A program made the position numbers and the translations under genes. Below the pieces are notes generated by a model, which was not told the DNA's origin, ran no database searches, and was given only the letters and a program-made list of their open reading frames with translations. Positions 9,289 through 32,000 of a stretch of 32,000 nt of DNA are shown here, piece after piece; the first letter of the stretch is position 1, and each line of letters starts with the position of its first letter. The stretch covers positions 5,040,001 to 5,072,000 of the forward strand of contig NZ_LN831039.1 of NCBI RefSeq assembly GCF_001457595.1, given 5' to 3'. This stretch comes from Mycolicibacterium smegmatis. Lineage in GTDB: Bacteria > Actinomycetota > Actinomycetes > Mycobacteriales > Mycobacteriaceae.

Positions 9289-9298
9289 GGAAGCCGGA

Positions 9299-12413: not shown

Positions 12414-12437
12414 CCGGTGTAACCCCAGGAGCTAGTG

Positions 12438-13163: not shown

Positions 13164-13173
13164 TCCTCAAAAG

Positions 13174-13205: not shown

Positions 13206-13217
13206 TGAGCCGTCGGA

Positions 13218-15457: not shown

Positions 15458-15486
15458 AGAATAGCCCTCTTCGGAGCAGGAATCAA
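15458..15486 (-). promoter_or_regulatory. Candidate sigma-A-type promoter for rho
   Basis: The minus strand reads TTGATT-N17-TATTCT (4/6 and 4/6 to consensus, ideal spacing). It lies 25 nt downstream of the thrB stop and about 225 nt upstream of the rho GTG. Confidence 0.3.
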
Positions 15487-15511
15487 GAAAAGTGGTGCTC
15501 CGCGTGTCCGC

Positions 15512-17557
<2,046 letters not shown>

Positions 17558-17561
<4 letters not shown>

Positions 17562-20298: not shown

Positions 20299-21947
20299 AT
20301 CCGCTCCGGTGCGCTGACGCCGAGGATCGCCAGGCCGTTGGCGATCACCTGGCGGGTCGCGCGGCACAACGCGAGGCGCGCCGAGTGCAGATCGCCGGGC
20401 TCCTCGTCGCCCTGCGGCAGCACGCGGCACGAGTCGTAGAAGCGGTGGTAGTCGCCGGCCAGGTCCTCCAGGTAGCGGCAGACGCGGTGCGGTTCGCGCA
20501 GCGAGGCCGCGGTCTTGAGCACACGCGGGAACTCACCCAGGTTGCGGATGAGCGCGCCCTCTTTGTCGTGTGTGAGCAGGTCCAGGTGGTCGGTGCTCAC
20601 GCTCACGCCCAGATCGGCGGCGTTGCGCGCCAGCGCGCACAGCCGCGCGTGGGCGTACTGCACGTAATAGACCGGGTTCTCGTTGGACGCGCTCGACCAC
20701 AGTTCGAGGTCGATGTCGATCGGGGTGTCCACCGACGAGCGGATCAGCGCGTACCGTGCGGCGTCGACCCCGATGGCCTCGACGAGGTCGTCGAGCGTGA
20801 TCACGGTGCCGGCGCGCTTGCTCATCCGCACGGGCTGGCCGTCGCGCACGAGGTTGACCATCTGGCCGATGAGCACCTCGACGGTGTCCGGATCGTCGCC
20901 GAGCGCGGCCGCGGCGGCCTTCAGGCGCGCGATGTAGCCGTGGTGGTCGGCGCCCAGCATGTAGATACACAGGTCGAACCCGCGCTTGCGCTTGTCCAGG
21001 TAGTACGCGAGGTCGCCGGCGATGTAGGCGGCGTTGCCGTCGCTCTTGATCACCACGCGGTCCTTGTCGTCACCGAAGTCGGTGGTGCGCAGCCAGACCG
21101 CGCCGTCCTTCTCGTAGATGTTGCCGGTCTCGCGCAGCTGGGTGATGGCCTGGTCGACGCGGCCCGAGGTGTGCATCGAGTCCTCGTGCGTGTACACGTC
21201 GAAGTCGGTGCCGAAGTCGTGCAACGACTGCTTGATGTGGGTGAACATCAGGTCGACGCCGATGGCGCGGAACGTCTCGCGCTGCTGGTCCTCGGGGAGA
21301 CCGAGCACGTCGGGCGCCTTGGCGATGACCTGCTGAGCGATGTCGACGATGTAGTCACCGGCATAGCCGTCCTCGGGGGTCGGCTCCCCCTTGGCCGAGG
21401 CGATCAGCGAGTTGACGAACCGGTCGATCTGCGCGCCGTGGTCGTTGAAGTAGTACTCACGCGTGACGGCCGCGCCCTGCGTCGCGAGCAGCCGCCCCAG
21501 CGCGTCGCCCACCGCGGCCCAGCGGGTGCCGCCGATGTGGATGGGGCCGGTGGGGTTGGCCGACACGAACTCCAGGTTGACGTTGCGGCCCGCGTACTGG
21601 CCGGACGAGCCGTAGCCGCCGTCGGCGGCCAGCACGTTGGTGATGATGACGCCCTGCGCCGACGCCTCGATGCGCAGGTTGACGAAGCCGGGCCCGGCGA
21701 CCTCGGCCGCGGCGATGCCGTCGGCCGCGGCCAGCGCCGTGGCGAGCCAGCCGGCCAGCTCACGCGGGTTGACGCCGACCTTCTTACCGAGCTGCAGCGC
21801 GAGGTTGGTCGCGTAGTCGCCGTGCTCGGGGTTGCGAGGACGCTCGACCGTGACGGTGGCGGGCAGCGCGGCCACGTCCAGGTCGTGTTCGGTCAGCACT
21901 GCGGCAGCAGTGGCCTTGAGCAGCTCAGCAAGGTCGGCGGGGGTCAC
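20295..21947 (-). CDS. argS: Arginine--tRNA ligase
   Basis: 550-aa ORF with the class I HIGH motif ([13 protein letters not shown]), an MSKR (KMSKS-like) motif and an anticodon-binding C-terminus. GTG start. Confidence 0.96.
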
Positions 21948-22055
21948 GAGGGTCCATCCTATGGTCTGGGGTCGCCCAGCCCCGAATCCGTATTCGCCGA
22001 CGGATGCGCTACGCTATCGGAGCCCAATCGGCGCAGTCTGGTTTTCAGATCAAGC

Positions 22056-22131
22056 GCCCCCGTAGCTCAGGGGATAGAGCGTCTGCCTCCGGAGCAGAAG
22101 GCCGCAGGTTCGAATCCTGCCGGGGGCACCA
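22056..22131 (+). tRNA. tRNA-Arg, anticodon CCG, genomically encoded CCA
   Basis: Folded by hand. The acceptor stem is GCCCCCG/CGGGGGC. The D arm is GCTC-AGGGGATA-GAGC. The anticodon arm is TCTGC-CT CCG GA-GCAGA. The variable loop is AGGCC. The T arm is GCAGG-TTCGAAT-CCTGC, followed by the discriminator A and CCA. Confidence 0.95.
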
Positions 22132-22345
22132 CCTCAAAAACCGCCTCTCACCAGGAGATACGGTTTAATCCGACGGCCCTTCCCGGCAACCCTCAACAAT
22201 CATCGAACGATTTATCGCCTTCGCTGGAGTGTTGGATTCGTTAGCTGACTCCCACCCACCAGCCCTGGCGATTCGTTCGACGCTGCTGACAAGATCATGT
22301 GGAAGGATCGTCCGCGCCGAAGTACCGACGCCATGTGGGGGCCGA

Positions 22346-23935
22346 ATGAGCGATCCTATGCAAATCGCGCGACTTATTGATCGTGTGCTGCGTGGCGAAA
22401 TCCGCGTACCCGGCTTCCAGCGCGATTTCGTGTGGGAGCCCGACCGCGCAGCACTGTTGATGGATAGCATTTACAAGGAATATCCTTTTGGATCAATATT
22501 ACTGTGGCGAACTCGAAATCAATTGAAGACCGAGAAAAAGCTCGGAACGTTCGAGTTGCCCGAACCCGAAGCCGATTACCCCATCGACTACGTCCTCGAC
22601 GGACAACAACGAATCACATCAATATTCTCGACATTCCAAACCGTGCTGCCGCCATCTGACGAAGACCCAGAAGTATGGCTTCCGATATATTACGATTTCG
22701 GCGCTAAAGCGGACGCTCAAGACTCACAATTCCAAGCACTGTCGAAATCGCAAGTTGACGTTGCTAGACACTTTCCTCTGGCGGTGTTCTTTGACCCGGT
22801 TGAGTTCGCAGCGAAACAACGTGAATACGAACTTGACGACGATCGACTGAGAGAAATAGTAACCGTCCAATCTAGATTTTCTGGGGCCCTCATTCCGGTT
22901 GAGACTTTCTCGGGCGAGGATCGAACGAGCGTCGCCATAGTCTTCGAGCGGGTTAATCGGCAAGGCGTAAAACTCGACACTTTCCAACTGTTGACCGCAT
23001 GGACGTGGAGCGAGGAGTTTGATTTACAAGAGAAGTTCAAAGATCTGGCCGAACGTTTTGAGTCGTTCGGCTTTGAAGACATCGGCACGGATAACGATCT
23101 AATGTTGCGCTGCGCATCCGCCGTTTTGCGGGCAGACCCGTCGCCGACCGCATTGATCGACATCAATGGCGCAGAAGTTCGCGAGAAATTCGATGTGATC
23201 GTGAAGGCGCTCGACCGAACAGTCGACTACCTGAGAAATGAAATGCAAGTACGGCATCTCAAGTTTCTGCCGTACGCCGGTCTACTTATTCCACTTTGTG
23301 CGTACTTCTCCCGTAAACAGTCGACCGGCATCAGCGATGCGGACAATAGGGTCCTGCGACGATGGTTCTGGCGAACTACTTTCACCCATCGCTATAGCGG
23401 TAATCCGTCACGCAGCGTCAAGCGGGATGTAGAGGCCGCGATCGAATTGCGTGAAGGTAATGAGTCGTCGCTGGACAAGCTTGATGCCGAAATTGGGACG
23501 GACTTCTATCTTGGAAACACATTCAATAACCGAACTGTAGCTACTCGCGCCTTCATTTTGCAATTGGCGGCCCACTCCCCTAGATCGTTCATCAGTGGCG
23601 GAACGATCACACTGGACGACGTACTGTCTGAACCTAACCGACGCGAATACCACCATTGTTATCCGAAAGCGTATGTAGCCAACTCCGGGGCAACGTCGAT
23701 CTACGACGTCAACTGCCTTGCGAACTTTGCGTTTCTCAGCCGATCCGAAAACCGCGAGATTTCGGACAAAGCACCCTCGGTCTATCGCTCGCTCATGGCG
23801 GACAACGTAGACGACATCCTGGCCTCACAAGTCATTCATCAGAATCTGTTCAATGATGATTTCGACGAATTCCTGCGAGAACGCGCCCTGATGCTGGTGT
23901 TCGATGCGGGGAACTTGATGGACGTGAGTAACTGA
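22346..23935 (+). CDS. DUF262 (ParB/Srx-like NTPase) plus DUF1524-like His-Me finger nuclease; GmrSD-family type IV (modification-dependent) restriction candidate
   Basis: The N-terminus has IRVPGFQRDFVWEP and DYVLDGQQRITSI (DGQQR motif). The C-terminus has EYHHCYPKAY...NCLANFAFLSRSENREISDKAP (H-x-x-P ... N ... N pattern). The track ORF starts at 22229. I prefer the ATG at 22346 (MSDPMQIARLIDRV...) with a GGGGG run 5 nt upstream. The gene is AT-richer than the flanks. Confidence 0.85.
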   Translation: MSDPMQIARLIDRVLRGEIRVPGFQRDFVWEPDRAALLMDSIYKEYPFGSILLWRTRNQLKTEKKLGTFELPEPEADYPIDYVLDGQQRITSIFSTFQTVLPPSDEDPEVWLPIYYDFGAKADAQDSQFQALSKSQVDVARHFPLAVFFDPVEFAAKQREYELDDDRLREIVTVQSRFSGALIPVETFSGEDRTSVAIVFERVNRQGVKLDTFQLLTAWTWSEEFDLQEKFKDLAERFESFGFEDIGTDNDLMLRCASAVLRADPSPTALIDINGAEVREKFDVIVKALDRTVDYLRNEMQVRHLKFLPYAGLLIPLCAYFSRKQSTGISDADNRVLRRWFWRTTFTHRYSGNPSRSVKRDVEAAIELREGNESSLDKLDAEIGTDFYLGNTFNNRTVATRAFILQLAAHSPRSFISGGTITLDDVLSEPNRREYHHCYPKAYVANSGATSIYDVNCLANFAFLSRSENREISDKAPSVYRSLMADNVDDILASQVIHQNLFNDDFDEFLRERALMLVFDAGNLMDVSN

Positions 23936-23937
23936 AC

Positions 23938-24081
23938 GTGGGTACGGCCCGTCAGACCTCGAACAAGCCTTCCGCTTCCTCGGCTGCGGTGATCCGCGCG
24001 GCTCGTATCAACAACATCGGCACAGCCGGTCACGCACGACTGCACCGCCCACAGCGAGCGTTGCCGCGTGGCCGGTCATGA
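23938..24081 (+). CDS. Possible 47-codon ORF (GTG start 2 nt after the DUF262 stop) carrying the conserved peptide AVIRAARINNIGTAGHARLHRPQRALPRG; alternatively the 3' relic of a paralogue of the 29408-29876 ORF
   Basis: Read by hand: VGTARQTSNKPSASSAAVIRAARINNIGTAGHARLHRPQRALPRGRS*. Its 3' 86 nt match 29775-29860, with differences almost only at third codon positions. It is below the ORF-track size cutoff. Confidence 0.3.
   Translation: MGTARQTSNKPSASSAAVIRAARINNIGTAGHARLHRPQRALPRGRS
23969..24077 (+). repeat. Copy 1 of a dispersed direct repeat of about 110 nt (partner 29760-29871)
   Basis: Aligned by hand. The core 23986-24071 versus 29775-29860 gives 70 of 86 identical, ungapped. CTTCCGCT lies upstream and CCGGTC downstream in both copies. 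Confidence 0.85.
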
Positions 24082-25596
24082 GCCCGATTCGGCATCCGGT
24101 GAGTCAGCGTGCTCATTTTCGGCGTATAGGTTTTCGTCGGGCAAACCTGGCAAAAACGGGCCGTGATTCAAAATCATATCCTCAGGCACCTGGGCAAGGT
24201 GTTCGCGTGCCGATTGGCGCTGCTTAGGTGCCCTTCTTTTACTTGCTTTGACGGCGGCACGAAACTCGTCAAGCGTATAAATTGTATCGTCCGAGCCATA
24301 CATATAGTAGACCGGCGCCTTTTCTTCCATTCCGACCCGCTCGCCATTAACGGTTGCGCGATCATCAAGCATGATAAGCAACGGAACCTGGTAACCTACA
24401 ATGTATGAATGGTCCCAGTAGCGACCTTCATCCCAAGCATTATCAGCAAGCTGATCGTAATGGCCCATTAAGTCAACGACGTGCTGACGGCTCAAATATT
24501 CGCCAGAAGCGCGCCGTAAGAGAATGCGACGGCACGCATCACGCGCACCGTCGTGAAACGACCAGCAATAGAGCACAGCGGGGTACTTCTTATGAGGCAC
24601 CGTTTTGGCGATTGGTTCTGCGACTCGGATCTTTTTGTCATACTCCGCCACACGGGCGTAGCCCGCTTCGTCGATGAAACAGACACCGAGGTTAGCGCGC
24701 TTGAGCTCCTGTAAGAACTTCACACCACTAGTTTTCAGTGTAATTAGATTGAATTCCTTTACGTCATCTTCGTCTGCGCCAAACGGAGACACAAAATAGG
24801 CTGGCTCGGCATACTGTCCCATATCCTTAAGCAACGCTTTGTAAAGCCGCCGAAAGTTCCAGTCTTTAAGGGAGTATCCGACAAATACTAGTGTGCGGGT
24901 GGCTAGAAGCTCCGTCAGTAGCCCACCCAAGACACCTTCGCGCAACGACTTGAGACTTCGCTTGTAGTCACTTTCCGTCGCGACGATACTGCCGAGGTTT
25001 GTCATGCTTCCATGGATTTTCAAGACTCGGCGTCCGGGCATTTTCCATAGCGCGATGTCGTCACCCGTGACGAACGGAATAGCTGCACATTCTTCTTCGA
25101 AATACGTGTCCCAATTAGTAGTGACGATATCCTCTAGATAAGGCATGGCTGCTAGTTCCTGATGGAAACGTCGTGCGTAGTACCTAAGAGTCCAGAAGCT
25201 ATCGACGTAATCGAACTTCGCTCTTACCATCTGGATAAATTCGCGACGGCCAAATTTTTTCACGAATGCTTCAATAACCTCAGGGAAAGAACCGGGTTCG
25301 TCTAGCTGAAGCATTTCTACAGCACGCTGGTAGACCGTCTGCGGGAACACCGTAGGCACCTCGGTACTGATCCCAGCACCGGCGAAGATTACAACTTGTC
25401 GCATGTGGGCCGCACGCACCAGCTCTACGGGCAACTCGAAGTCATGATCGAGTCCACAGTGCGTGCATTGACAGATCTCTGCGTGCTGGGCACCGTCCCC
25501 AGCCCGAACTATCGCGCCTTCTCCCGCCATGTGTTCGATGGTCGCAGATGTACGGTTACTGGCTTCTGAGCGGCGCGCCTTTAGGCGTGCCGCCAT
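24076..25596 (-). CDS. SIR2_2-family (NAD+-consuming) domain protein with a C-terminal domain of about 200 aa that I cannot assign; candidate stand-alone abortive-infection effector
   Basis: Motifs present are VVIFAGAGIS (NAD-binding glycine motif), IVTTNWDTYFE (catalytic Asn), VLKIHGSMTNLGSIVATESDY (catalytic His) and LVFVGYSLKDWNFRRLY. An alternative start is the ATG at 25530 (MAGEGAIV...). The 25596 ATG lies in the GC-rich flank, inside the TauE-like remnant, so 25530 may be the native start. This is the most AT-rich stretch among the 60-nt lines I hand-counted. Confidence 0.85.
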   Translation of the reverse strand: MAARLKARRSEASNRTSATIEHMAGEGAIVRAGDGAQHAEICQCTHCGLDHDFELPVELVRAAHMRQVVIFAGAGISTEVPTVFPQTVYQRAVEMLQLDEPGSFPEVIEAFVKKFGRREFIQMVRAKFDYVDSFWTLRYYARRFHQELAAMPYLEDIVTTNWDTYFEEECAAIPFVTGDDIALWKMPGRRVLKIHGSMTNLGSIVATESDYKRSLKSLREGVLGGLLTELLATRTLVFVGYSLKDWNFRRLYKALLKDMGQYAEPAYFVSPFGADEDDVKEFNLITLKTSGVKFLQELKRANLGVCFIDEAGYARVAEYDKKIRVAEPIAKTVPHKKYPAVLYCWSFHDGARDACRRILLRRASGEYLSRQHVVDLMGHYDQLADNAWDEGRYWDHSYIVGYQVPLLIMLDDRATVNGERVGMEEKAPVYYMYGSDDTIYTLDEFRAAVKASKRRAPKQRQSAREHLAQVPEDMILNHGPFLPGLPDENLYAENEHADSPDAESGS

Positions 25597-25826
25597 ACGC
25601 GAATCGCTGAGAGCGCCAGCAGAGCGGCCAACAACGGCACGATGATCAGGCTCGGGATCACACCGAGAAGCAGAGCACCCACTACCGTCCCGGTGATCGA
25701 GCCAGCCGCCATGACGACCACAAAACGCATGTTGTGCCGCAGCACCACGAAACTCTGATCACGGCTGTGGGTCTGGACGCTACCGAAGAGACGCACTCTC
25801 GACACGTCGTCAGTAAGCCGTGGCAA
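25581..25826 (-). pseudogene. Remnant resembling the C-terminal TM hairpin of a TauE/SafE (DUF81) family permease
   Basis: RFVVVMAAGSITGTVVGALLLGVIPSLIIVPLLAALLALSAIRVW resembles a TauE C-terminus. No matching N-terminal 200 aa lies upstream, because that space is occupied by the 89-aa ORF. Confidence 0.4.
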
Positions 25827-26079
25827 TGCGCTTACCCGCCGTCACGCCGACGTAGTACTCCGCGCGGCGCTTGCGGGTCCGCAGCTTCACACCGGCCGAT
25901 ACGCCGTAGTACTCGCGGTTCGGACCGACGCGACCGAGCCGGACAGTGCTACCCGCCGAACCGCTGACATAGCGGGGACGGCGCGTCTTGATCTTGCGGG
26001 CAGTCCGCTTGACTGACGAGCCGCCGGTCGGAGCGAAGCGGCCTTTGCGGTCGCGCTTGTACGTCCGTCGTTTCGCCAT
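25810..26079 (-). CDS. Hypothetical 89-aa highly basic protein
   Basis: MAKRRTYKRDRKGRFAPTGG... has an internal EYY(G)V(S/T)AG(V)K duplication. Third-position GC is high, consistent with real coding. The ATG lies 3 nt after the stop of the 39-codon ORF upstream. Confidence 0.5.
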   Translation of the reverse strand: MAKRRTYKRDRKGRFAPTGGSSVKRTARKIKTRRPRYVSGSAGSTVRLGRVGPNREYYGVSAGVKLRTRKRRAEYYVGVTAGKRIATAY

Positions 26080-26082
26080 GGC

Positions 26083-26202
26083 TTAGTGCTTCCGTTTGCG
26101 CCGTGTGCGGCTCGCTGCGGCGTTTCCGACCTTGCTCGAACCCTTCGCCTTCGCCTGTCGTGCAAAGCGCTTCCGCGCTGCGGCCTGTTTCTTACTCGCC
26201 AT
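26083..26202 (-). CDS. Hypothetical 39-aa Lys/Arg-rich peptide
   Basis: Read by hand: MASKKQAAARKRFARQAKAKGSSKVGNAAASRTRRKRKH*. A GAAAGGA SD lies 6 nt upstream of the ATG. It is below the ORF-track cutoff. Confidence 0.35.
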   Translation of the reverse strand: MASKKQAAARKRFARQAKAKGSSKVGNAAASRTRRKRKH

Positions 26203-26212
26203 GGCGGTCCTT

Positions 26213-26345
26213 TCAATCGCTGAGCTTGATCGACGGTCCATCGGGCTTGCCCACGGTGCCCCGATTCACTTTCACGCGCGTTTCCCCCTTAGCCTCGATC
26301 CACCGATGAATTGGCTGGTCGCAGGGTGTCGTGACGAGGAAAGTG
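26213..26345 (-). pseudogene. 3' fragment of a minus-strand gene, apparently truncated by the IS1380-family insertion
   Basis: The frame reads ...TFLVTTPCDQPIHRWIEAKGETRVKVNRGTVGKPDGPSIKLSD* with about 70% GC3. The frame runs open into the IS with no plausible start codon. Confidence 0.3.
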
Positions 26346-27949
26346 CCTTCTGAGCTGTGATGATGAGTGTTCTCTAGGCACTTATCGGCACAACTTCGAA
26401 AGGCACTTCCGGTGAAAGTGTCCCATAGGTTCGCTGCGTCGTCGGCGGTCTTCGATGATGCCCATCTCGTGTCGTGCGCCGGTCTGGTGCCGGTAATGAC
26501 GCTGGCCACCCAGACCGGACTGTCACAGTTGCTGGCCGACAAGGTTCGTATCAGCGAACCACGGATCAAGTCCGGGTCGGCCAACCCGTCGCCGAAGCTG
26601 CTCACCGTGGTCGCCGGAATGTGCGCCGGCGCCGACAGCATTGATGACCTCGACCTCGTGCGTGGCGGCGGGATGAAGACGCTCTTCGATGGGGTCTATG
26701 CACCATCGACGATCGGAACACTGTTGCGGGAGTTCACCTTCGGACACGCCCGGCAGTTGGAGTCGGTCCTGCGTCATCATCTGGCCGCACTCTGTGCGCG
26801 GGTGGACCTGCTGCCCGGATCCGACACGGGGGCGTTCATCGACATCGACTCACTGCTGCGCCCGGTCTATGGCCACGCCAAACAGGGTGCCTCCTACGGG
26901 CATACCAAGATCGCTGGTAAGCAGGTTCTGCGTAAAGGGCTCTCCCCGTTGGCGACGACGATCAGCACCCCCGGAGCGGCGCCGGTGATCGCCGGGATGC
27001 GGCTGCGCGCCGGTAAGACCAGTTCCGGGAAGGGTGCGGGCCGCATGGTCGCCCAAGCCATCGCCACCGCCCGCGCCGCCGGCGTGCGCGGGCAACTGCT
27101 GGTGCGTGGCGATTCGTCCTACGGCACCCGGTCGGTGGTGGGCGCCTGCCGAGCCCACAATGCGCACTTCTCGGTGGTGATGACCCGCAATACCGCGGTT
27201 GATCGGGCCATCAGTTCGATCGACGAGCAGGCCTGGGAGCCGGTCAACTATCCCGGTGCAGTGCGTGATCCCGACACCGGTGACTGGATTTCTGATGCCG
27301 AGGTCGCCGAGGTCAGCTACACCGCCTTCGCCTCTACCAAAGATCGGTTCACCGCGCGGTTGGTGGTGCGGCGAGTCAAAGACGCGAGATTTCGGGACGC
27401 GCTGTTCCCGGTGTGGCGGTATCACCCGTTCTTCACCAACACAGACTTGCCGACCGCCGAGGCTGACATCACCCACCGCCAGCACGCGATCATCGAAACC
27501 GTCTTCGCCGATCTGATCGACGGACCCCTGGCCCACATGCCCTCAGGACAGTTCGGTGCCAACAGTGCGTGGGTGTTGTGCGCGGCGATCGCGCACAACC
27601 TGCTGCGCGCCGCCGGCGTGCTCGCAGGAGGTGCCCACGTGGTTGCCCGCGGCGCGACGCTGCGCCGCAAGATCGTCAACATTCCCGCCCGTCTGGCCCG
27701 ACCCCAGCGTCGACCGATCCTGCACCTCCCCGAGCACTGGCCCTGGACAGAGCACTGGCTCACGTTGTGGCGCAACACCATCGGATACAGCCCACCGCTA
27801 CCGGCAACGACCTGACCAACGCGCCGAACAGGCCCAACCGGAGCACACAGGAAAAGCTGGGCAGACCAGCAACTACCGCATGCCCGCAACACCGAACGCA
27901 GCAGAAACCACACACGGACACCTCAAGGAGGGCCGCTCCACGGATTCAG
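26346..27949 (+). mobile_element. IS1380-family insertion sequence (boundaries approximate)
   Basis: It holds a single transposase ORF. The right end is tentatively ...CCACGGATTCAGG (reverse complement CCTGAATCCGTGG, a CC-initiated terminus as I recall for this family). I could not find a convincing matching left inverted repeat or a target duplication. Confidence 0.5.
26367..27815 (+). CDS. IS1380-family DDE transposase
   Basis: 482-aa ORF. SSAVFDDAHLVSCAGLVPVMTLATQTGL...MCAGADSIDDLDLVRGGGM...FGHARQL...VRGDSSYG...HRQHAIIETVFADLIDGPLAHMPSGQFGANSAW matches actinobacterial IS1380-family transposases as I recall them. In-frame GTGs at 26412 and 26418 are alternative starts. Confidence 0.9.
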   Translation: MFSRHLSAQLRKALPVKVSHRFAASSAVFDDAHLVSCAGLVPVMTLATQTGLSQLLADKVRISEPRIKSGSANPSPKLLTVVAGMCAGADSIDDLDLVRGGGMKTLFDGVYAPSTIGTLLREFTFGHARQLESVLRHHLAALCARVDLLPGSDTGAFIDIDSLLRPVYGHAKQGASYGHTKIAGKQVLRKGLSPLATTISTPGAAPVIAGMRLRAGKTSSGKGAGRMVAQAIATARAAGVRGQLLVRGDSSYGTRSVVGACRAHNAHFSVVMTRNTAVDRAISSIDEQAWEPVNYPGAVRDPDTGDWISDAEVAEVSYTAFASTKDRFTARLVVRRVKDARFRDALFPVWRYHPFFTNTDLPTAEADITHRQHAIIETVFADLIDGPLAHMPSGQFGANSAWVLCAAIAHNLLRAAGVLAGGAHVVARGATLRRKIVNIPARLARPQRRPILHLPEHWPWTEHWLTLWRNTIGYSPPLPATT

Positions 27950-27962
27950 GCTTAGTGATCGG

Positions 27963-28060
27963 GTGGTAGTCGCGCGCCTGGCCCGCATCGCCGCTCAACT
28001 CACCGGGACCGACACGTCTAGGTTCGCCTCGCATCGCCGAATCCAGCGCAACCGCCAGCG
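27963..28060 (+). pseudogene. 5' part of a plus-strand ORF interrupted by the IS3-family element (continues at 29408)
   Basis: VVVARLARIAAQLTGTDTSRFASHRRIQRNRQR has very high GC3. Its reading frame (position mod 3 = 0) is the same as that of the ORF resuming at 29409. Confidence 0.35.
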
Positions 28061-28088
28061 TGAAACGCCCTGGGTTTCCCGGAGGCTC
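28061..28088. repeat. IS3-family terminal inverted repeat (orfB-proximal end)
   Basis: See the mobile-element entry. 25 of 28 match to the reverse complement of 29380-29407. Confidence 0.9.
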
Positions 28089-28091
28089 GGG

Positions 28092-28931
28092 CTATTGGAT
28101 TCCGATCAAGGGTTGGTCGGTCCGGTATGCATCGTAGAACGCAGCTTCGAACTCGGCAGGTGGGATGTCGCCGAGGTAGCTGTGTAGTCGGCTGGTGTTG
28201 TGCCAGTAGACCCAGCTGAGCGTCGCCAACTCGACGTCTTCGACGGTTTTCCATGGCCCGGTGCGGGCGGGGCCGTAGATCAGTTCGGCCTTGTAGTAGC
28301 CGTTGACCGTCTCCGCGAGAGCGTTGTCGAAACTGTCCCCGACGGTCCCGATTGACGGGACTGCGCCGATCTCAGCGAGCCTTTCCCCGTAGCGAATGGA
28401 GGTGAATTGCGACCCGGCATCCGAGTGACATCTCAAGCCTGGCAACATATTTCCACGTGACCACCGCGCCATCTCCAACGCGTCGAGCACCATCGAGGTC
28501 CGCATATGCGAGGCTACCCGCCAGCCCACGATCATCCGCGAATACGCGTCGATGATGAAGCACACATACGCCACCCCGGCCCAGGTCGGCACGAACGTCA
28601 GGTCGGTCACCCAGAGCTGGTTCGGGGCGGTCGCGGTGAAGTTGCGCTTCACCAAATCCGGATGCCGGGCCGCGGCCGGGTCGGGTTTGGTGGTGCGGAC
28701 CCGTTTGCCGCGCCGGACTCCCTCGATGCCGGCGGCCCGCATCAGCCGGGCCACCTGATCCCGGCCGACGTCATGACCCTCGCGGCGGGCGGTTTTCCAG
28801 AGCTTGCGGGCCCCATAGACGCAGTAGTTGTCTTTCCAGAGCTGACACAACGCCGGCCCCAGGACGGCGTCCCGCAGGGCCCGCGCCGACGGGACCCGGG
28901 CTTTGGTGTCGTAGTAGGTGCTCAGGGCCAC
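28092..28931 (-). CDS. IS3-family transposase OrfB (DDE catalytic domain), probably made as an OrfAB fusion by -1 frameshifting
   Basis: The DDE triad context is present: WVTDLTFV, CHSDAGSQFTS, NALAETVNGYYKAE. The orfB frame has no stop across at least the last 40 codons of orfA. Confidence 0.9.
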   Translation of the reverse strand: MALSTYYDTKARVPSARALRDAVLGPALCQLWKDNYCVYGARKLWKTARREGHDVGRDQVARLMRAAGIEGVRRGKRVRTTKPDPAAARHPDLVKRNFTATAPNQLWVTDLTFVPTWAGVAYVCFIIDAYSRMIVGWRVASHMRTSMVLDALEMARWSRGNMLPGLRCHSDAGSQFTSIRYGERLAEIGAVPSIGTVGDSFDNALAETVNGYYKAELIYGPARTGPWKTVEDVELATLSWVYWHNTSRLHSYLGDIPPAEFEAAFYDAYRTDQPLIGIQ

Positions 28932-29008
28932 CTGCAGGCCTGCGCTGCGCAGGACGGTGCAGATGGGCTCGACCCCGAACTCCTCGCGATTGGCGTCGAT
29001 GAACTCGA

Positions 29009-29353
29009 CTATTTCTTGTGTTGGCGGTCGAGCTCCGCCCCGAAGAAACTCGCTGCACGTTTCAGAATCTCGTTGGCGCGCTTGAGTTCTCGATTCTCCT
29101 GCTCGAGCTCCTGCACCCTTTTCGACTCCGCGGTCGTCACCCCGGGTGCCAGGCCTTCGTCGATGTCGGCCTGACGGACCCAGGTGCGCACCGATTCCAC
29201 TCCGTAGCCGAGCTGGCGAGCAACGCGCTGCACCGTGCCCTGCTCGGTGCCCAGCTCCGCCCGGAGCGTGCGGACCATCCGTACCGCGGCGGCCTTCTCC
29301 TCGGCACTGTATCGACGCGTCGTGGGTTTCCCGGGCGACTGTTCCTTCGGCAT
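29009..29353 (-). CDS. IS3-family transposase OrfA (HTH plus leucine zipper)
   Basis: 114-aa ORF with RRYSAEEKAAAVRMV...VQRVARQLGYGVESVRTWVRQ (HTH) and a heptad region VQELEQENRELKRANEILKRA. Confidence 0.9.
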   Translation of the reverse strand: MPKEQSPGKPTTRRYSAEEKAAAVRMVRTLRAELGTEQGTVQRVARQLGYGVESVRTWVRQADIDEGLAPGVTTAESKRVQELEQENRELKRANEILKRAASFFGAELDRQHKK

Positions 29354-29379
29354 ACCTGCATCCTCGTTTCCAAGGTCAG

Positions 29380-29407
29380 GAGCCTCCGGGATTTCCAGGG
29401 CGTTTCA
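29380..29407. repeat. IS3-family terminal inverted repeat (orfA-proximal end)
   Basis: See the mobile-element entry. Confidence 0.9.
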
Positions 29408-29876
29408 GCTCGACCGGGGTGGTTTGGGAGCCAAGACCGAAATCGAACTCAGCGCCAAGCCGTACGAACAGCTTTTGGACAAGATGCCGAAGTTGCAAAG
29501 CGGCAGCCGCGCCGAGTGGCGACGCTCCCAAGGCATCGCAGACGATTCCGACAAACCCCCACCCGCCCTGGTGGCTGCCAACGCTGACGAGCCGGTCGAC
29601 GTCGAGATCGTCTCAGAGAGCGATCAACAAAACGACGCCCACCCGATGACACCAGAGGATGACGATTGGCAGCCAGACGAAGCCACCGGGCCGGGAATCG
29701 ACGGCTACGACGATCAACCGAACCCGTTCGGCGAGAGCGACCCACCGCCTGACGGCTTGCTTCCGCTCGATGAGGCGGTGATCCGTGCCGCTCGCATAAA
29801 TAACATGGGCACCGCTGGGCATGCGAGACTGCACCGACCGCAGCGGGCGTTGCCACGTGGTCTCTCCGGTCGGTAA
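29408..29876 (+). pseudogene. 3' part of the IS3-interrupted ORF; an acidic, Pro-rich protein ending in the conserved basic peptide
   Basis: ...AKTEIELSAKPYEQLLDKMPKLQSGSRAEWRR...DDDWQPDEATGPGIDGYDDQPNPFGESDPPPDGLLPLDEAVIRAARINNMGTAGHARLHRPQRALPRGLSGR*. GC3 is about 70%. An internal ATG (MPKLQSG...) could still give a truncated product. Confidence 0.45.
29760..29871 (+). repeat. Copy 2 of the dispersed direct repeat of about 110 nt (partner 23969-24077)
   Basis: See copy 1. Here it forms the last 30 or so codons of the 29408-29876 ORF. Confidence 0.85.
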
Positions 29877-29908
29877 CCCGGCAGGGTCAAAACCTGCCGG
29901 GAAACACC
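29877..29908 (+). other. Hairpin CCCGGCAGG-gtcaaaa-CCTGCCGGG resembling the T-arm/acceptor 3' half of the tRNA-Arg; candidate relic att site, or simply a terminator hairpin
   Basis: 29881-29901 (GCAGGGTCAAAACCTGCCGGG) versus tRNA positions 22104-22124 (GCAGGTTCGAATCCTGCCGGG) gives 18 of 21 identical, including a 7-nt loop. CACC follows in both, with a 1-nt offset. Confidence 0.4.
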
Positions 29909-30011
29909 TGATTATGCAGGTCAAACCGTTGCACCCGAAGCGCTCAACAATGATTCACGCATCCGGTGCAGATGGGAAATTGGAATTTCCCTATGGCTCA
30001 ACTGTTTTCGG

Positions 30012-30989
30012 TCATGGACCGTCTCTGCGCGGCTGCACCCCAAAGAACGCGCCCCCACCCGAACCCGGTTGATTGTCAAAGCCGGTGTAGTCAAAAGTGA
30101 TTCCGTTTGTGTCCCACCCGCCAGGGTTGCCGATGGACGGACCCCAAATCCCGCCAGGCATCATGACGTAAGGTGTTGAAACCGTGAGCCTTTCGGCGAA
30201 CTGATCGAGCATGTCGGGTTCCTGTTGCCGCGCTTTCTCGAATAGCTCCGCTTGGCGTTGGCGGTCACTGATGTAAAGCCCGGTTCGGATCGCTTGGCCG
30301 GGCTTGTCGAGCACGACAGTCATCACGTTGTCGCCCACCTTGTCTGTGAGCGCGCTCGTTTCCAGTACGGCGTCCCTGAGAATGTCCCTCACTTGGTCGG
30401 GGACTTCATCGGCGGGGCAACTGAGCGCAGTCAATCGTGCCTTCGCACGGTCGATGATCGGGTTATTCACCATACCAACAGCATCGATGTAGAACGCTTT
30501 GAATTGCTGTGTATCAGGCCGCATTTCGATGCTTGTGACCGAATCACCTTGGGCCTTAGTGCGAAACATTACCTTGGTTACCATGCCGTCTTTGCGTTGC
30601 ACACCTGACGCGAGAACGATTGTCGCACGCTTCTTTTCACTGGCTAGCAGATGTGAGTAAGCGTCTCGCAGCGCGTTCTCCACGCGGTTGCGAATCTCTC
30701 GGTAATGCAAGTCCGGTGGCGGCTGCCAGAACGTCATCATGGCGGGCGCAAGCTCGTCGTATCCGCTGATCGCTTCTGCGATGAGTCGATCAGTCGGCTT
30801 GCCGTCGAGAAACGCCAGCCCGGTATAGCCCAGCACGACCCAACAGTCGATGCCCAGAACTACAACGGTCTTGTTGCTGTGCGGATCGTATTCGCCGGTT
30901 GGATTATCTGGCGTCGGCTCGACGCTAACGAATCGGTCGCTCGCATGGAACGCCCAATTTCCCACGACTGCGGCGACGATCAGCGTCAT
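30012..30989 (-). CDS. Hypothetical 325-aa protein, translationally coupled to the integrase; the N-terminus is reminiscent of Ntn-hydrolase/proteasome-beta/HslV folds
   Basis: The ATG overlaps the integrase TGA (ATGA at 30986-30989). The N-terminus is M-TLIVAAVVGNWAFHASDRFVS...SNKTVVVLGIDCWVVLGYTG. That gives Thr directly after the initiator Met, Asp at position 17 from that Thr, and a Lys-containing strand about 39 residues in. The C-terminal tail is Gly-rich. I recognise no other motif. Confidence 0.75.
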   Translation of the reverse strand: MTLIVAAVVGNWAFHASDRFVSVEPTPDNPTGEYDPHSNKTVVVLGIDCWVVLGYTGLAFLDGKPTDRLIAEAISGYDELAPAMMTFWQPPPDLHYREIRNRVENALRDAYSHLLASEKKRATIVLASGVQRKDGMVTKVMFRTKAQGDSVTSIEMRPDTQQFKAFYIDAVGMVNNPIIDRAKARLTALSCPADEVPDQVRDILRDAVLETSALTDKVGDNVMTVVLDKPGQAIRTGLYISDRQRQAELFEKARQQEPDMLDQFAERLTVSTPYVMMPGGIWGPSIGNPGGWDTNGITFDYTGFDNQPGSGGGAFFGVQPRRDGP

Positions 30990-32000
30990 GCCGACACGCC
31001 CACGCTGGCTGCCAACGTATCGGCCCGCAACGCCGAGAGAGCGTCGGCAACGGCGATGTCACGGCCCGACACCTGTTGCTGATAGATCAGGCTGGCTTTG
31101 TGGGTGGAATGCCGCAGCCGCGCCATCGTCTCGACCAGGTTGCCGACCTGAGCCGTCATGGTGCCCGCGAAGTGACGCAGATCGTGCACCCGCATATCGT
31201 TGTGCCCAACTGCACTCAGCGCCGGTTTGAAAACGTCTTTGGCGAACACCCGATCATTGACGTGGCACCCGCCGCGCGCGGGCGTGAACAGAAGCGAATC
31301 ACCCGCTTTATCAACGTGATTGGCTAGGTGCGCTCTTATGTCATCCCGAATGTGTGGAGGGATCACCACCTTGGCGGGCTTGCCGTCTTTAGGCGTGTCG
31401 ATGATGCATTCGCCGCTTCGGTGGGTTACACCACGCGCCACCGTGACCACAGTGCAATCGGCATCGAAGTCTTTTCGGCGCAGCTCCGACACTTCCCCGT
31501 ACCGCAGGCCGCACCACGCAGAAATCAACACCAGGGCGCGGAAGCGGGCGTTTTTGGTGTCGCCACCCAACTTGTCGGCAATGGCCTCAAGCTCGGGAAT
31601 CGTTGGCACAACGGCCTGGCGCTTGGTCTTCGGGTTCATTGCCCGTTCGATCATGCAGGGGTTGCGCTCAATCAATCCGTCTCGTACGGCGGTATTGCAA
31701 ACCATGTTGAGCAAACCGTACGCGTGAGCGTTGCGCGTCGGGTGCGTCGAGCCGAGGCCGGAGAACCACGTCCGCACCAAAGCAGGACTCAGGTCACGAA
31801 CCGCGTACTTGCCGAGCTTGGGCGCGATGTAGTTCGTCAGCGACGCCTCATAACCGATTCGGGTTCGCGGTTTGAGGTTGCGTTCACTGATCACCGCTTT
31901 CGCGTATTCGGCGACGGTGACCGCCACGGCCTTATTTTCCTCGGTGATCACTTCGGGCGGTTTCCACGACGACAGTCCCTCATCGCTCGCCGCGCACCGG
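30986..32000 (-). CDS. int: Tyrosine recombinase / phage-type integrase (the 5' end may extend beyond the window)
   Basis: The catalytic signature is present: CGLRYGEVSELRR (Arg I), VHDLRHFAGT (H-x-x-R) and RLRHSTHKASLIYQQ (His ... Tyr nucleophile). The frame stays open from the GTG at 31951 to position 32000. Confidence 0.92.
   Translation of the reverse strand, partial: RCAASDEGLSSWKPPEVITEENKAVAVTVAEYAKAVISERNLKPRTRIGYEASLTNYIAPKLGKYAVRDLSPALVRTWFSGLGSTHPTRNAHAYGLLNMVCNTAVRDGLIERNPCMIERAMNPKTKRQAVVPTIPELEAIADKLGGDTKNARFRALVLISAWCGLRYGEVSELRRKDFDADCTVVTVARGVTHRSGECIIDTPKDGKPAKVVIPPHIRDDIRAHLANHVDKAGDSLLFTPARGGCHVNDRVFAKDVFKPALSAVGHNDMRVHDLRHFAGTMTAQVGNLVETMARLRHSTHKASLIYQQQVSGRDIAVADALSALRADTLAASVGVSA

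What the first reader, a model, noticed from the sequence alone, without database searches (positions are those of the whole stretch)
22056..25600. Two AT-richer, convergent single-gene defence cassettes (GmrSD-like nuclease and SIR2 NADase) immediately downstream of tRNA-Arg(CCG)
Base composition changes right after the tRNA 3' end. My hand counts on 60-nt lines give 72% G+C at 20401-20460 (lysA/argS), 48% at 22501-22560 (DUF262 gene) and 42% at 24721-24780 (SIR2 gene). The two low-GC genes are separated by a GC-rich spacer of about 140 nt (23936-24075). The GC-rich flank returns near 25565. Both products belong to families known from anti-phage immunity (GmrSD/BrxU/SspE-type DUF262-DUF1524 nucleases; SIR2 NAD+ depletion effectors). 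No methyltransferase, HerA, TIR/ThsB, pAgo or STAND partner is present. They therefore do not fit the multi-gene systems I know (Thoeris, SIR2-HerA, SPARSA, Ssp, BREX). They could be two independent one-gene systems or an undescribed pairing.
Basis: partly seen in the sequence, partly recalled or inferred. Interest (0 to 1): 0.7.

Follow-up and report, generated by a model that had tools for sequence, protein, structure and literature searches.

The report
Two unrelated defence genes beside tRNA-Arg
A strain-specific island inserted at the end of a tRNA-Arg gene in some Mycolicibacterium smegmatis strains carries two low-GC single genes of known anti-phage types, a BrxU/GmrSD-like nuclease and a stand-alone SIR2 enzyme; they were acquired separately and do not form a new two-gene system.

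Summary
G+C falls from 0.68 (GC3 0.86-0.95) to 0.53 (GC3 0.55-0.58) exactly at the 3' end of tRNA-Arg(CCG). Homology to M. smegmatis mc2 155 (99%) stops at base 22130, and nothing from 22131 to 32000 is present in mc2 155. The low-GC pair is therefore only the tRNA-proximal 3.5 kb of an island of at least 10 kb that also holds IS1380, IS3, unknown genes and a tyrosine integrase.

Gene A (22346-23935, +) is a full-length BrxU/GmrSD-like protein. It has DUF262 with an invariant DGQQR motif, and a divergent C-terminal His-Me nuclease with HHC(Y/F)P where BrxU has DHIYP.

Gene B (24076-25530, -) has a SIR2_2 domain whose conserved Asn and His align with the catalytic residues of defence NADases (KomC, ThsA, DSR2). 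It is fused to an all-helical C-terminal domain found only in this family.

The pairing is not conserved. None of about 35 full-length SIR2 homologue loci outside M. smegmatis has the DUF262 gene, and none of 99 DUF262 homologue loci has the SIR2 gene. A related mycobacterium keeps SIR2 at the same tRNA but has other genes in place of DUF262. The "GC-rich spacer" is the last 31 codons of a gene truncated at the DUF262 junction.

Verdict: two independent single-gene defence candidates. Defence activity is inferred, not shown.

The parts
22056..22131 (+). tRNA-Arg(CCG). Its 3' end is the left junction of the island.
   Evidence: ARAGORN and Rfam. The 99% homology to mc2 155 (CP001663.1) ends at 22130. 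No second copy of the tRNA 3' end is present in the window or in the further 5.2 kb held in L014.
22346..23935 (+). Gene A: a 529-aa BrxU/GmrSD-like protein (DUF262, helical linker, divergent His-Me/DUF1524-like nuclease). The longest ORF starts at GTG 22229. The annotated start in other strains is ATG 22346, which follows a GGGGG run.
   Evidence: Pfam PF03235 at 1.6e-27. PADLOC PDC-M55C at 3.3e-60 full length, and HEC-05 (=BrxU) at 5.9e-31. AlphaFold model pLDDT 84. Foldseek to BrxU 7p9k at 1.4e-13 over 609 columns and to DndI 9jfl at 5e-4. Annotated as 529 aa in the complete genomes. G+C 0.517, GC3 0.58.
22598..22612 (+). DGQQR motif (D85-R89) of the DUF262 NTP-hydrolysis site. PGFQR lies at 22409-22423 and LMDS (RLFDS-like) at 22457-22468.
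   Evidence: Invariant in 26 homologues. Coordinates. Motif roles as described for BrxU/GmrSD in PMC8565348.
23645..23752 (+). C-terminal nuclease motif EYHHCYP...N460...N469 (His-Me finger, divergent DUF1524).
   Evidence: E434, H436, H437, P440, N460 and N469 are invariant. PF07510 GmrSD_C is the only Pfam hit for this segment but is sub-threshold (E 0.034, 14.5 bits against a cut-off of 23). BrxU has DHIYP at this position.
23986..24081 (+). The 'GC-rich spacer' is the relic 3' end (last 31 codons plus stop) of a gene whose 5' part is missing at the DUF262 junction. Its stop codon (24079-24081) lies just past the SIR2 stop codon on the other strand, so the two reading frames overlap by 6 nt. 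It contains a hairpin at 24047-24018 (-) just downstream of SIR2.
   Evidence: It is 81% identical in DNA to window 29775-29860. Of 19 differing codons, 17 are synonymous and 2 non-synonymous. The intact homologue (302 aa) is convergent with SIR2 in Mycobacterium sp. NAZ190054 (L015 4965-5873). Stop codons lie upstream in the frame. The hairpin is, where the number of terminator-like sites is not above chance.
24076..25530 (-). Gene B: a 484-aa SIR2_2 protein with a family-specific all-helical C-terminal domain. The longest ORF starts at ATG 25596 (506 aa). Homologues and the NCBI annotation start at M23 (25530).
   Evidence: Pfam PF13289 at 5.9e-21. P0001 is 100% identical, 'SIR2 family protein [M. 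smegmatis]', 484 aa. Model pLDDT 78. Foldseek top hits are DSR2, ThsA and KomC over the N-terminal ~280 aa only. The C-terminal domain has no Pfam hit and occurs only fused to SIR2_2. G+C 0.521, GC3 0.55.
25006..25122 (-). Predicted SIR2 catalytic residues: N139 in TTNWD (25108-25122) and H173 in KIHGS (25006-25020). The Rossmann motif FAGAGIS lies at 25366-25386.
   Evidence: Invariant in 22 homologues. In the HMM alignment, TTNWD aligns to TTNYD and kihGs aligns to KFHGD of KomC, at the position changed in the KomC H146N structure. Coordinates.
25581..25826 (-). Fragment of a TauE/SafE-type membrane protein gene (81 codons, matching profile positions 61-109 of 237). It is a remnant that marks the edge of the SIR2 cassette.
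   Evidence: Pfam PF01925 at 6.2e-06, below threshold, partial match. Nucleotide homology to the SIR2 locus of NAZ190054 ends at 25550.
25810..26079 (-). Small, very basic 89-aa ORF of unknown function, called as a gene in all assemblies.
   Evidence: A 65%-identical homologue lies directly upstream of the SIR2 homologue in Mycobacterium sp. 21AC1 (L001 7749-7937). No Pfam or PADLOC hit.
26293..27950 (+). IS1380-family insertion sequence, present in this strain and a few others but absent from CP089215.1 and CP082846.1.
   Evidence: NCBIfam transpos_IS1380 at 2.6e-99. The gap in the alignment to L006, L007 and L008 falls exactly at 26292/27951.
28092..29353 (-). IS3-family transposase (rve/HTH_21), annotated as 420 aa in other strains.
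   Evidence: Pfam and annotation of L007 4258-5519.
29424..29876 (+). 150-aa gene, a paralogue of the C-terminal half of the L015 302-aa gene. Its 3' end is the second copy of the 86-nt repeat.
   Evidence: blastp 49% identity, 2e-41. Repeat. No Pfam or PADLOC hit.
30012..30989 (-). 325-aa gene of unknown function, part of the island.
   Evidence: no family hit.
30986..32000 (-). Tyrosine integrase (396 aa in CP089215.1). Its 5' part runs off the window end.
   Evidence: Pfam Phage_integrase, Phage_int_SAM_3 and Phage_int_M. Integrase_N_phage plus Phage_integrase in L007 and L014.

Best explanation
The region is the tRNA-proximal end of a strain-specific genomic island integrated at the 3' end of tRNA-Arg(CCG), next to argS. 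The island is at least 10 kb and decayed: it carries IS1380, IS3, gene fragments and a distal tyrosine integrase. It is present in a subset of Mycolicibacterium smegmatis strains and absent from mc2 155. The first 3.5 kb holds two separately acquired, autonomous single-gene cassettes of defence type. (1) Gene A is a BrxU/GmrSD-family type IV restriction enzyme. Inferred mechanism: the N-terminal DUF262 domain binds and hydrolyses NTP (DGQQR motif), and this gates a C-terminal His-Me finger nuclease (HHCYP...N...N) that cuts invading, probably base-modified, phage DNA. (2) Gene B is a stand-alone SIR2_2 enzyme. Inferred mechanism: on infection its family-specific helical C-terminal domain (sensor or oligomerisation module) releases the SIR2 domain (N139/H173) to hydrolyse NAD+, stopping phage replication by abortive infection. 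Shown here: the composition break, the exact junction, absence from mc2 155, the domain architectures, conservation of the catalytic motifs, the lack of conserved partners, and the gene relic between the two genes. Inferred from family knowledge: the biochemical activities and the anti-phage role.
For: Island: 99% identity to mc2 155 ends at 22130, and none of 22131-32000 is in mc2 155. G+C is 0.53 against 0.68 and GC3 is 0.55-0.58 against 0.86-0.95. An integrase and IS elements are present. Independence of the two genes: DUF262 lies next to SIR2 only in M. smegmatis. SIR2 homologues in 21AC1 (72% identity), CBMA293 (55%), NAZ190054 (91%), M. heidelbergense, M. moriokaense, Cryobacterium, Microbacterium and about 25 loci from other phyla have no DUF262 gene within 10 kb. 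None of 99 DUF262 homologue loci has a SIR2 homologue, and no neighbour recurs in more than 5 of 99. The closest DUF262 gene (84%, Mycolicibacterium sp. CBM1) sits at a different chromosomal locus without SIR2. NAZ190054 has SIR2 at the same tRNA-Arg/argS site, with 384-aa and 302-aa genes in place of DUF262. The spacer is the last 31 codons of that 302-aa gene family, with 17 synonymous and 2 non-synonymous codon changes against its paralogue. Gene A identity: PF03235 at 1.6e-27, BrxU by sequence profile at 3.4e-13 and by fold at 1.4e-13 over the full length, invariant DGQQR and E/H/H/P/N/N residues. HEC-05/BrxU is an experimentally active defence system. Gene B identity: PF13289 at 5.9e-21; the nearest solved proteins are the defence NADases KomC (7.9e-15), ThsA and DSR2; the invariant Asn and His align with the catalytic positions. 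Accessory distribution: homologues are scattered across phyla, and both families also occur on plasmids, with a full-length SIR2 homologue on C. glutamicum pCGR2. DUF262 homologues also occur on IMG/VR viral contigs. Both families keep about 50% G+C in mycobacterial genomes of 65-69%.
Against: No experiment or expression data exist for either gene, so defence is inferred from homology. The DUF1524 nuclease domain is not recognised by Pfam at threshold (E 0.034), and the Asp of DHIYP is replaced by His, so nuclease activity is not guaranteed. The best PADLOC match of gene A is a component (C) of a multi-gene candidate, PDC-M55, whose other components are not present here. The SIR2 C-terminal domain has no known fold match or function. 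In strain CP082846.1 an ISL3 element interrupts the SIR2 3' end, which suggests the gene is dispensable. No att repeat was found, so the mechanism and extent of integration are unresolved. Co-occurrence was tested as adjacency (within 8-10 kb), not genome-wide.
Confidence: 0.72

Rival explanations
1. The two genes form a previously undescribed two-gene defence system in which the GmrSD-like protein and the SIR2 protein cooperate, for example as a nuclease sensor plus an NADase effector.
For: They are adjacent, both low-GC, and kept together in every M. smegmatis strain that carries the island. Both belong to defence-type families.
Against: They are convergent, not co-oriented. A truncated third gene lies between them. 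Adjacency occurs in one species only: 0 of about 35 full-length SIR2 homologue loci outside M. smegmatis and 0 of 99 DUF262 homologue loci show the partner. NAZ190054 keeps SIR2 at the same site without DUF262. CBM1 keeps DUF262 without SIR2. One strain tolerates an ISL3 insertion in SIR2 while DUF262 stays intact.
Confidence: 0.05
2. Gene A is an orphan component of a modification-dependent multi-gene system (PDC-M55-like, or SspE/DndI-like phosphorothioate sensing). It needs partners encoded elsewhere or is inactive here.
For: The best PADLOC hit is PDC-M55C, the third gene of a multi-gene candidate. Foldseek also finds DndI at 5e-4. SspE and DndI are DUF262 proteins that depend on host phosphorothioate modification (papers listed).
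Against: No neighbour of gene A, in the window or in the homologue loci, matches any PADLOC model. No neighbour is conserved across 99 homologue loci, so the family normally travels alone. BrxU, a self-sufficient enzyme, is a far better match than DndI (1.4e-13 against 5e-4). No dnd or ssp genes were seen in the island.
Confidence: 0.12
3. The genes are non-defence or decaying cargo. The SIR2 protein is a deacylase or ADP-ribosyltransferase with a cellular or mobile-element role, and the island is simply a degraded integrative element with no current benefit.
For: The island is littered with IS copies and gene fragments. SIR2 is interrupted in CP082846.1. No function has been shown. The C-terminal domain is unknown. 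In Rhizobiales the homologue lies next to a housekeeping gene, nrdJ.
Against: Both ORFs are intact, with all catalytic residues, and are identical or 99.95% identical across strains. The SIR2 domain is of the SIR2_2/NADase type: KomC, ThsA and DSR2 score at 1e-15 to 1e-9, against 0.099 for the canonical sirtuin 1ma3. Both families are conserved at 40-60% identity across actinobacteria, which indicates purifying selection.
Confidence: 0.1

Closest known systems
BrxU (PADLOC HEC-05) and GmrSD, type IV restriction enzymes
   Same: Single polypeptide of similar length (529 aa against 580 aa). N-terminal DUF262 with DGQQR and an RLFDS-like (LMDS) motif, a helical linker, and a C-terminal His-Me nuclease. 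Full-length structural match to 7p9k. Stand-alone gene in a variable region.
   Different: About 18% identity. The nuclease motif is HHC(Y/F)P instead of DHIYP, and Pfam DUF1524 is below threshold. The gene is not embedded in a BREX, Hma or type I R-M locus. The best PADLOC model is PDC-M55C, not HEC-05. Substrate specificity is unknown.
SspE / DndI (phosphorothioate-sensing DUF262 nucleases)
   Same: DUF262 plus C-terminal nuclease architecture. Foldseek to DndI 9jfl at 5e-4.
   Different: A much weaker match than BrxU. No ssp or dnd modification genes are nearby.
ThsA (Thoeris)
   Same: SIR2_2 NADase domain of similar total length. PADLOC ThsA1 at 5.4e-12, and PDB 6lhx/8bto at 2e-11 to 3e-10.
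   Different: The C-terminal domain is all-helical, not SLOG. No ThsB/TIR partner is present.
DSR2 / DSR1 (defence-associated sirtuins, single-gene)
   Same: A single gene with an N-terminal SIR2 NADase domain fused to a C-terminal non-catalytic region. Top Foldseek hits.
   Different: DSR proteins are 1000-1250 aa with large C-terminal sensor regions. This protein is 484 aa with an unrelated ~200-aa helical domain. NCBIfam Dsr2 scores 22.6 bits against a cut-off of 1400.
KomC (Kongming SIR2 NADase)
   Same: Closest solved SIR2 domain by sequence (7.9e-15), with aligned TTN(W/Y)D and (I/F)HG motifs.
   Different: KomC is a 264-aa SIR2-only protein that works with KomA/KomB. No such partners are seen here, and this protein carries an extra C-terminal domain.
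PADLOC candidate PDC-S25 (single-gene SIR2 candidate)
   Same: Best PADLOC hit for gene B (7.3e-15), of similar length (517 aa).
   Different: Only about 107 residues of the SIR2 core align (139-245 of 517). The rest, including the C-terminal domain, does not.

Membership tests
GmrSD/BrxU type IV restriction enzymes | N-terminal DUF262 (PF03235) domain | tested here: met
   PF03235 at 1.6e-27, 97 bits against a cut-off of 33, residues 48-258 of the 568-aa ORF.
GmrSD/BrxU type IV restriction enzymes | Nucleotide-binding and hydrolysis motifs RLFDS and DGQQR | tested here: met
   DGQQR (D85-R89) is invariant in 26 homologues. LMDS aligns as the RLFDS-like motif. Motif definitions from PMC8565348.
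GmrSD/BrxU type IV restriction enzymes | C-terminal DUF1524 (PF07510) HNH nuclease with DHIYP motif | tested here: inconclusive
   PF07510 is the only Pfam hit but is sub-threshold (E 0.034, 14.5 bits against 23). The motif is HHC(Y/F)P, with invariant E434, H436, H437, P440, N460 and N469. The Foldseek alignment to BrxU spans the full length (609 columns).
GmrSD/BrxU type IV restriction enzymes | Cleavage of modified (e.g. hmC or glucosyl-hmC) DNA, and phage restriction | not testable with these tools
   Needs biochemistry and plaque assays.
PADLOC PDC-M55 (multi-gene candidate) | Presence of the A and B components next to the C component | tested here: not met
   Gene A matches PDC-M55C at 3.3e-60. 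No neighbour, including SIR2, hits a PDC-M55 model. No neighbour is conserved in 99 homologue loci.
Ssp/Dnd phosphorothioate-sensing systems (SspE, DndI) | Linked sspABCD or dndABCDE modification genes | tested here: not met
   None among the island genes scanned with Pfam, NCBIfam and PADLOC. The rest of the genome was not examined.
Defence-type SIR2 NADases (SIR2_2, PF13289) | SIR2_2 domain with a Rossmann GAG motif and catalytic Asn and His | tested here: met
   PF13289 at 5.9e-21. FAGAGIS, TTNWD (N139) and KIHGS (H173) are invariant. The His aligns with the position changed in the KomC H146N structure.
Defence-type SIR2 NADases (SIR2_2, PF13289) | Phage-triggered NAD+ depletion | not testable with these tools
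   Needs NAD+ measurements during infection.
Thoeris (ThsA/ThsB) | C-terminal SLOG domain in ThsA and an adjacent TIR-domain ThsB | tested here: not met
   The C-terminal 200 aa are predicted all-helical with no Pfam hit. No TIR gene is in the neighbourhood.
SIR2-HerA, SPARSA (SIR2-APAZ/pAgo), AVAST/STAND-SIR2 | Adjacent HerA helicase, short pAgo, or a fused STAND NTPase | tested here: not met
   The neighbours are a TauE fragment, an 89-aa basic ORF, IS elements and the DUF262 gene. The protein has only SIR2_2 plus an unknown domain.
DSR1/DSR2 | Protein of about 1000-1250 aa with a large C-terminal sensor region; NCBIfam Dsr2 equivalog | tested here: not met
   The protein is 484 aa. NF041819 scores 22.6 bits against a cut-off of 1400. 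Foldseek aligns only about 280-320 columns.
Canonical sirtuin deacylases (PF02146) | Match to the canonical Sir2 family | tested here: not met
   No PF02146 hit. The canonical Sir2 1ma3 scores only E 0.099, against 1e-15 to 1e-9 for defence NADases.
tRNA-integrated genomic island | Strain-variable DNA starting at a tRNA 3' end, atypical composition, integrase, flanking att direct repeats | tested here: inconclusive
   Junction at the tRNA end, absence from mc2 155, the composition break and the integrase are all met. The att repeat was not found within the 15 kb available, and the distal end lies outside the window.

The most novel reading that the evidence does not exclude
The 484-aa SIR2 protein represents an uncharacterised stand-alone NADase defence family. 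Its fixed, family-specific helical C-terminal domain is found only fused to SIR2_2, in about 111 representative clusters out of 1.84 billion proteins. That domain could be a new kind of infection sensor, possibly reading nucleotide-pool perturbation, given the repeated placement of homologues directly downstream of nrdJ in Rhizobiales and the sequence proximity of the SIR2 domain to KomC. A persistently low G+C (about 50%) in high-GC actinobacterial hosts might keep such genes under Lsr2-type silencing until they are needed.
Probability: 0.3. Interest if true: 0.55.

Novelty: new member of a known kind. Interest (0 to 1): 0.3.

Why it matters
M. smegmatis mc2 155 is the standard host for mycobacteriophage isolation, and it lacks this island. 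Wild M. smegmatis strains that carry the island have two extra candidate barriers, a type IV restriction enzyme and an NAD+-depleting abortive-infection enzyme, which could change phage host range. Both genes can be tested directly by transplanting them into mc2 155. The locus also shows cassette turnover at a tRNA-Arg/argS hot spot in mycobacteria: SIR2 is retained while its neighbours are swapped. It also identifies a compact SIR2 family with an unknown C-terminal domain that has not, to my knowledge, been tested. It does not reveal a new type of multi-gene system.

Tried and rejected
- **att repeats:** I looked for direct repeats of the tRNA 3' end in the window and in the 5.2 kb beyond it. 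None was found.
- **Conserved partner of SIR2:** I clustered ORFs within 5 kb of about 32 homologue loci. The only recurrent neighbour is nrdJ, in Rhizobiales; actinobacteria show none.
- **Conserved partner of DUF262:** I clustered neighbours in 99 loci. Nothing recurred in more than 5 loci.
- **TauE link:** The closest DUF262 homologue (CBM1) sits next to an intact TauE gene. I tested whether the TauE fragment next to SIR2 is related to it. tblastn found no match, so this is coincidence.
- **Apparent SIR2 truncations:** Gene calls of 356 and 424 aa on Logan contigs looked like truncations. The DNA is 99.95-100% identical to the window, so these are start-codon calling differences, not real truncations.
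- **Literature:** PDC-M55 gave no papers and PDC-S25 only an incidental mention. Papers on M. smegmatis defence systems do not describe these genes.
- **Phage genomes:** No SIR2 homologue was found, only distant DUF262 homologues in non-mycobacterial phages.
- **Structured RNAs:** An Rfam scan of 21800-26400 found nothing in the leader or spacer beyond the tRNA and an IS-end match.
- **Promoter and terminator scans:** Counts were not above chance.

Full report
**1. Observation**

The window is Mycolicibacterium smegmatis. The SIR2 protein is 100% identical to an NCBI 'SIR2 family protein [M. smegmatis]'. The rho-thrB-thrC-hom-lysA-argS block is 99% identical to mc2 155.

ARAGORN and Rfam place tRNA-Arg(CCG) at 22056-22131. 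G+C runs at 0.66-0.75 up to about 22000, 0.48-0.55 over 22250-25400, and 0.62 or more afterwards.

The segment 22132-25580 has 0.530 G+C, against 0.682 +/- 0.021 for 1.5-kb windows of the core, about 7 SD. GC3 is 0.58 and 0.55 for the two genes, against 0.86-0.95 for six flanking core genes.

**2. The island is larger than the finding**

A look-up of the window's ThrB protein returned mc2 155 (CP001663.1) and related genomes. Their alignment to the window is continuous from 6396 to 22130 and stops at the 3' end of the tRNA. Nothing from 22131-32000 has a counterpart in the mc2 155 locus, which instead continues with unrelated genes.

Strains that share the window's exact ArgS protein all carry the two genes next to argS. 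These are CP089215.1, CP082846.1, GCA_029221905.1 and several SRA assemblies.

To the right of the SIR2 gene, the island holds:
- a TauE gene fragment and an 89-aa basic ORF;
- an IS1380 copy at 26293-27950, which is an insertion relative to other strains;
- an IS3 transposase;
- two genes of unknown function, of 150 and 325 aa;
- a tyrosine integrase that runs off the window end.

In CP089215.1 further non-core genes follow the integrase. So the 'return to GC-rich flank' at about 25565 is still island DNA (0.627 G+C). No direct repeat of the tRNA 3' end was found in the 15 kb available, so the distal boundary is unknown.

**3. Gene A (22346-23935, +)**

- **Family hits.** Pfam reports only GmrSD_N/DUF262, at 1.6e-27. 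The best PADLOC hit is PDC-M55C, full length at 3.3e-60, followed by HEC-05. According to the Payne et al. preprint, HEC-05 is BrxU.
- **Solved relatives.** A profile of 26 homologues finds BrxU (7p9k) as the only significant solved relative, at 3.4e-13. The AlphaFold model (pLDDT 84) matches BrxU over the full length by Foldseek at 1.4e-13. It also matches DndI more weakly, at 5e-4.
- **Motifs.** The family is highly conserved (mean column identity 57%). PGFQR and DGQQR are invariant, as is a C-terminal E434-x-H436-H437-x-x-P440...N460...N469 signature. BrxU and GmrSD are defined by RLFDS and DGQQR in DUF262 and by DHIYP in the DUF1524 HNH domain (PMC8565348). Here LMDS and DGQQR are present, and HHC(Y/F)P replaces DHIYP.
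- **Nuclease domain.** The C-terminal 116 aa hit Pfam GmrSD_C as the only family, but below threshold (E 0.034).

I therefore file gene A as a divergent GmrSD/BrxU-like protein. The nuclease domain is supported by motifs and fold but not by a curated model.

**4. Gene B (24076-25530, -)**

Homologues and the NCBI annotation start at the second Met, giving 484 aa.

- **Family hits.** Pfam gives SIR2_2 at 5.9e-21. PADLOC's best hits are PDC-S25 (7.3e-15, SIR2 core only) and ThsA1. NCBIfam Dsr2 scores far below its cut-off.
- **Solved relatives.** The nearest solved proteins are defence NADases. By profile these are KomC (7.9e-15), a ThsA-like protein (7uxt), ThsA and DSR2. By fold they are DSR2, ThsA and KomC, covering only the N-terminal ~280 residues.
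- **Catalytic residues.** FAGAGIS, TTNWD and KIHGS are invariant. In the profile alignment the His aligns with the position changed in the KomC H146N structure. A canonical sirtuin scores only E 0.099.
- **C-terminal domain.** Residues 285-450 are predicted as a confident all-helical domain with no Pfam match even at E 10. An exhaustive phmmer search of 1.84 billion representatives with residues 285-484 found only 111 clusters. In all seven full-length (448-509 aa) hits checked, the domain sits at about 290-460 behind a SIR2_2 domain. Two other checked hits lacked SIR2_2: the 1196-aa PKD-repeat outlier P0248 and a 209-aa fragment.

The architecture is therefore fixed and family-specific. It is not ThsA (no SLOG domain), not DSR (too short), and not a SIR2-HerA, pAgo or STAND type (no partner or fusion).

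**5. Is the pairing real?**

- **From the SIR2 side.** A scan of one genome per species returned about 34 full-length homologue loci, from Actinomycetota to Planctomycetota, Acidobacteriota, Pseudomonadota, Bacillota and Bacteroidota. tblastn with the DUF262 protein found a DUF262 gene beside a SIR2 gene only in the M. smegmatis loci. Its only other match was the 84%-identical CBM1 homologue in L005, which has no SIR2 gene.
- **Close relatives agree.** Mycobacterium sp. 21AC1 (72% identity) and CBMA293 (55%) have no DUF262 neighbour.
- **From the DUF262 side.** In 80 metagenomic and 19 IMG/VR loci there were no SIR2 homologues, and no neighbour family recurred in more than 5 loci. The closest DUF262 homologue (84%, Mycolicibacterium sp. 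CBM1) lies at a different locus (xerD...der, TauE) without SIR2.
- **Most telling case.** Mycobacterium sp. NAZ190054 has the 91%-identical SIR2 gene at the same argS/tRNA-Arg(CCG) site, also at about 0.51 G+C. Between the tRNA and SIR2 it has 384-aa and 302-aa genes of unknown function instead of DUF262.

**6. The spacer**

The 140-nt 'GC-rich spacer' contains an 86-nt stretch (23986-24071). It is 81% identical to window 29775-29860 and to the 3' end of the NAZ190054 302-aa gene.

In the + frame it encodes AVIRAARINNIGTAGHARLHRPQRALPRGRS*. The frame's stop codon (24079-24081) lies just past the SIR2 stop codon, so the convergent frames overlap by 6 nt. Against the paralogue at 29775, 17 of 19 differing codons are synonymous. 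The frame is closed by stop codons just upstream.

It is therefore the relic of a gene that was convergent with SIR2, as in NAZ190054. Its 5' part is missing from the point where the DUF262 segment (22131-23985) begins. This is consistent with an ancestral tRNA-g384-g302-SIR2 arrangement in which g384 and most of g302 were replaced by DUF262, that is, two separate acquisitions.

Nucleotide homology supports modular movement. Homology with CBM1 is confined to the DUF262 ORF (22337-23931), and homology with NAZ190054 to 23986-25550.

**7. Mechanism (inferred)**

Gene A most likely acts as a self-contained, NTP-gated type IV restriction endonuclease against modified phage DNA, by analogy with BrxU and GmrSD. 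Gene B most likely acts as an infection-activated NADase that causes abortive infection, by analogy with ThsA, DSR2 and KomC. Its helical C-terminal domain would be the regulatory or sensing module.

Neither activity was or could be tested here. Both families behave as accessory genes:
- they are scattered taxonomically;
- the DUF262 family occurs on viral contigs;
- both families occur on plasmids, including a 37%-identical full-length SIR2 homologue on C. glutamicum pCGR2, between mobF and a DNA methylase;
- they are strain-variable within M. smegmatis;
- they stay at about 50% G+C in mycobacterial genomes of 65-69%.

**8. Verdict**

The domain calls are essentially correct. The more exciting reading, a new pairing, is not supported. 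What is there is a typical hot-spot island with two independent single-gene defence candidates, each a new member or divergent variant of a known kind. The most interesting remaining item is the untested SIR2 family with its private C-terminal domain.

Noticed in passing
L033, L034, L035, L036, L038, L041, L046 (about 5800-11400 in each): In Rhizobiales (Rhizobium, Mesorhizobium, Aquamicrobium, Pseudolabrys) the full-length homologue of the SIR2 protein lies 80-360 nt downstream of the class II ribonucleotide reductase gene nrdJ, on the same strand. The downstream side is not conserved. This could be an insertion hot spot or a functional link to nucleotide metabolism.
   Followed up: partly
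window 26294-26400 (-): The Rfam family Ms_IGR-7 ('Actinobacteria sRNA') matches at 85.8 bits, but the match is the terminal ~107 nt of the IS1380 copy (26293-27950). The annotated sRNA may be an IS-end transcript.
   Followed up: partly
window 26293-27950: This IS1380-family copy is an insertion specific to this strain lineage. It is absent at this site in CP089215.1 and CP082846.1. Several assemblies (L009, L010, L012) break inside it.
   Followed up: yes
L006 (CP082846.1) 5447-7701, corresponding to window ~24236-24247: In strain CP082846.1 an ISL3 transposase plus a PRiA4_ORF3 gene are inserted in the 3' end of the SIR2 gene. The annotated protein there is 458 aa instead of 484. The DUF262 gene is intact.
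   Followed up: partly
window 23986-24071 and 29775-29860; L015 4965-5873: An 86-nt direct repeat marks the 3' ends of two paralogous genes: a relic next to SIR2 and a 150-aa gene next to the integrase module. The full-length 302-aa form in NAZ190054 has a Cys/His-rich motif (C..H......C...........C..HGG) and no Pfam family. Its role in the island is unknown.
   Followed up: partly
window 25810-26079 (-); L001 7749-7937: An 89-aa Arg/Lys-rich ORF upstream of SIR2 has a 65%-identical homologue immediately upstream of the SIR2 homologue in Mycobacterium sp. 21AC1. It is absent from the other SIR2 loci. It could be a small accessory or regulatory gene travelling with SIR2 in some lineages.
   Followed up: partly
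L001, L002, L005, L015, L017, L018 (gene against flanks): Both gene families stay at 0.49-0.52 G+C in every mycobacterial genome examined (backgrounds 0.65-0.69), even between homologues only 55% identical. There is little amelioration. This could reflect rapid turnover or selection for AT-richness, for example Lsr2 binding.
   Followed up: no
window 25456-25473 (-), SIR2 residues 10-25: A conserved His...CxxC motif precedes the SIR2 domain in nearly all homologues (C22 and C25 conserved in at least 90%). It may be a small metal-binding element, but this part of the model has low confidence.
   Followed up: no
L001 5466-7183: In Mycobacterium sp. 21AC1 the SIR2 homologue sits beside a truncated tyrosine integrase (197 aa) and a second, distant SIR2_2-like gene (375 aa). 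This is another small mobile or defence patch.
   Followed up: no
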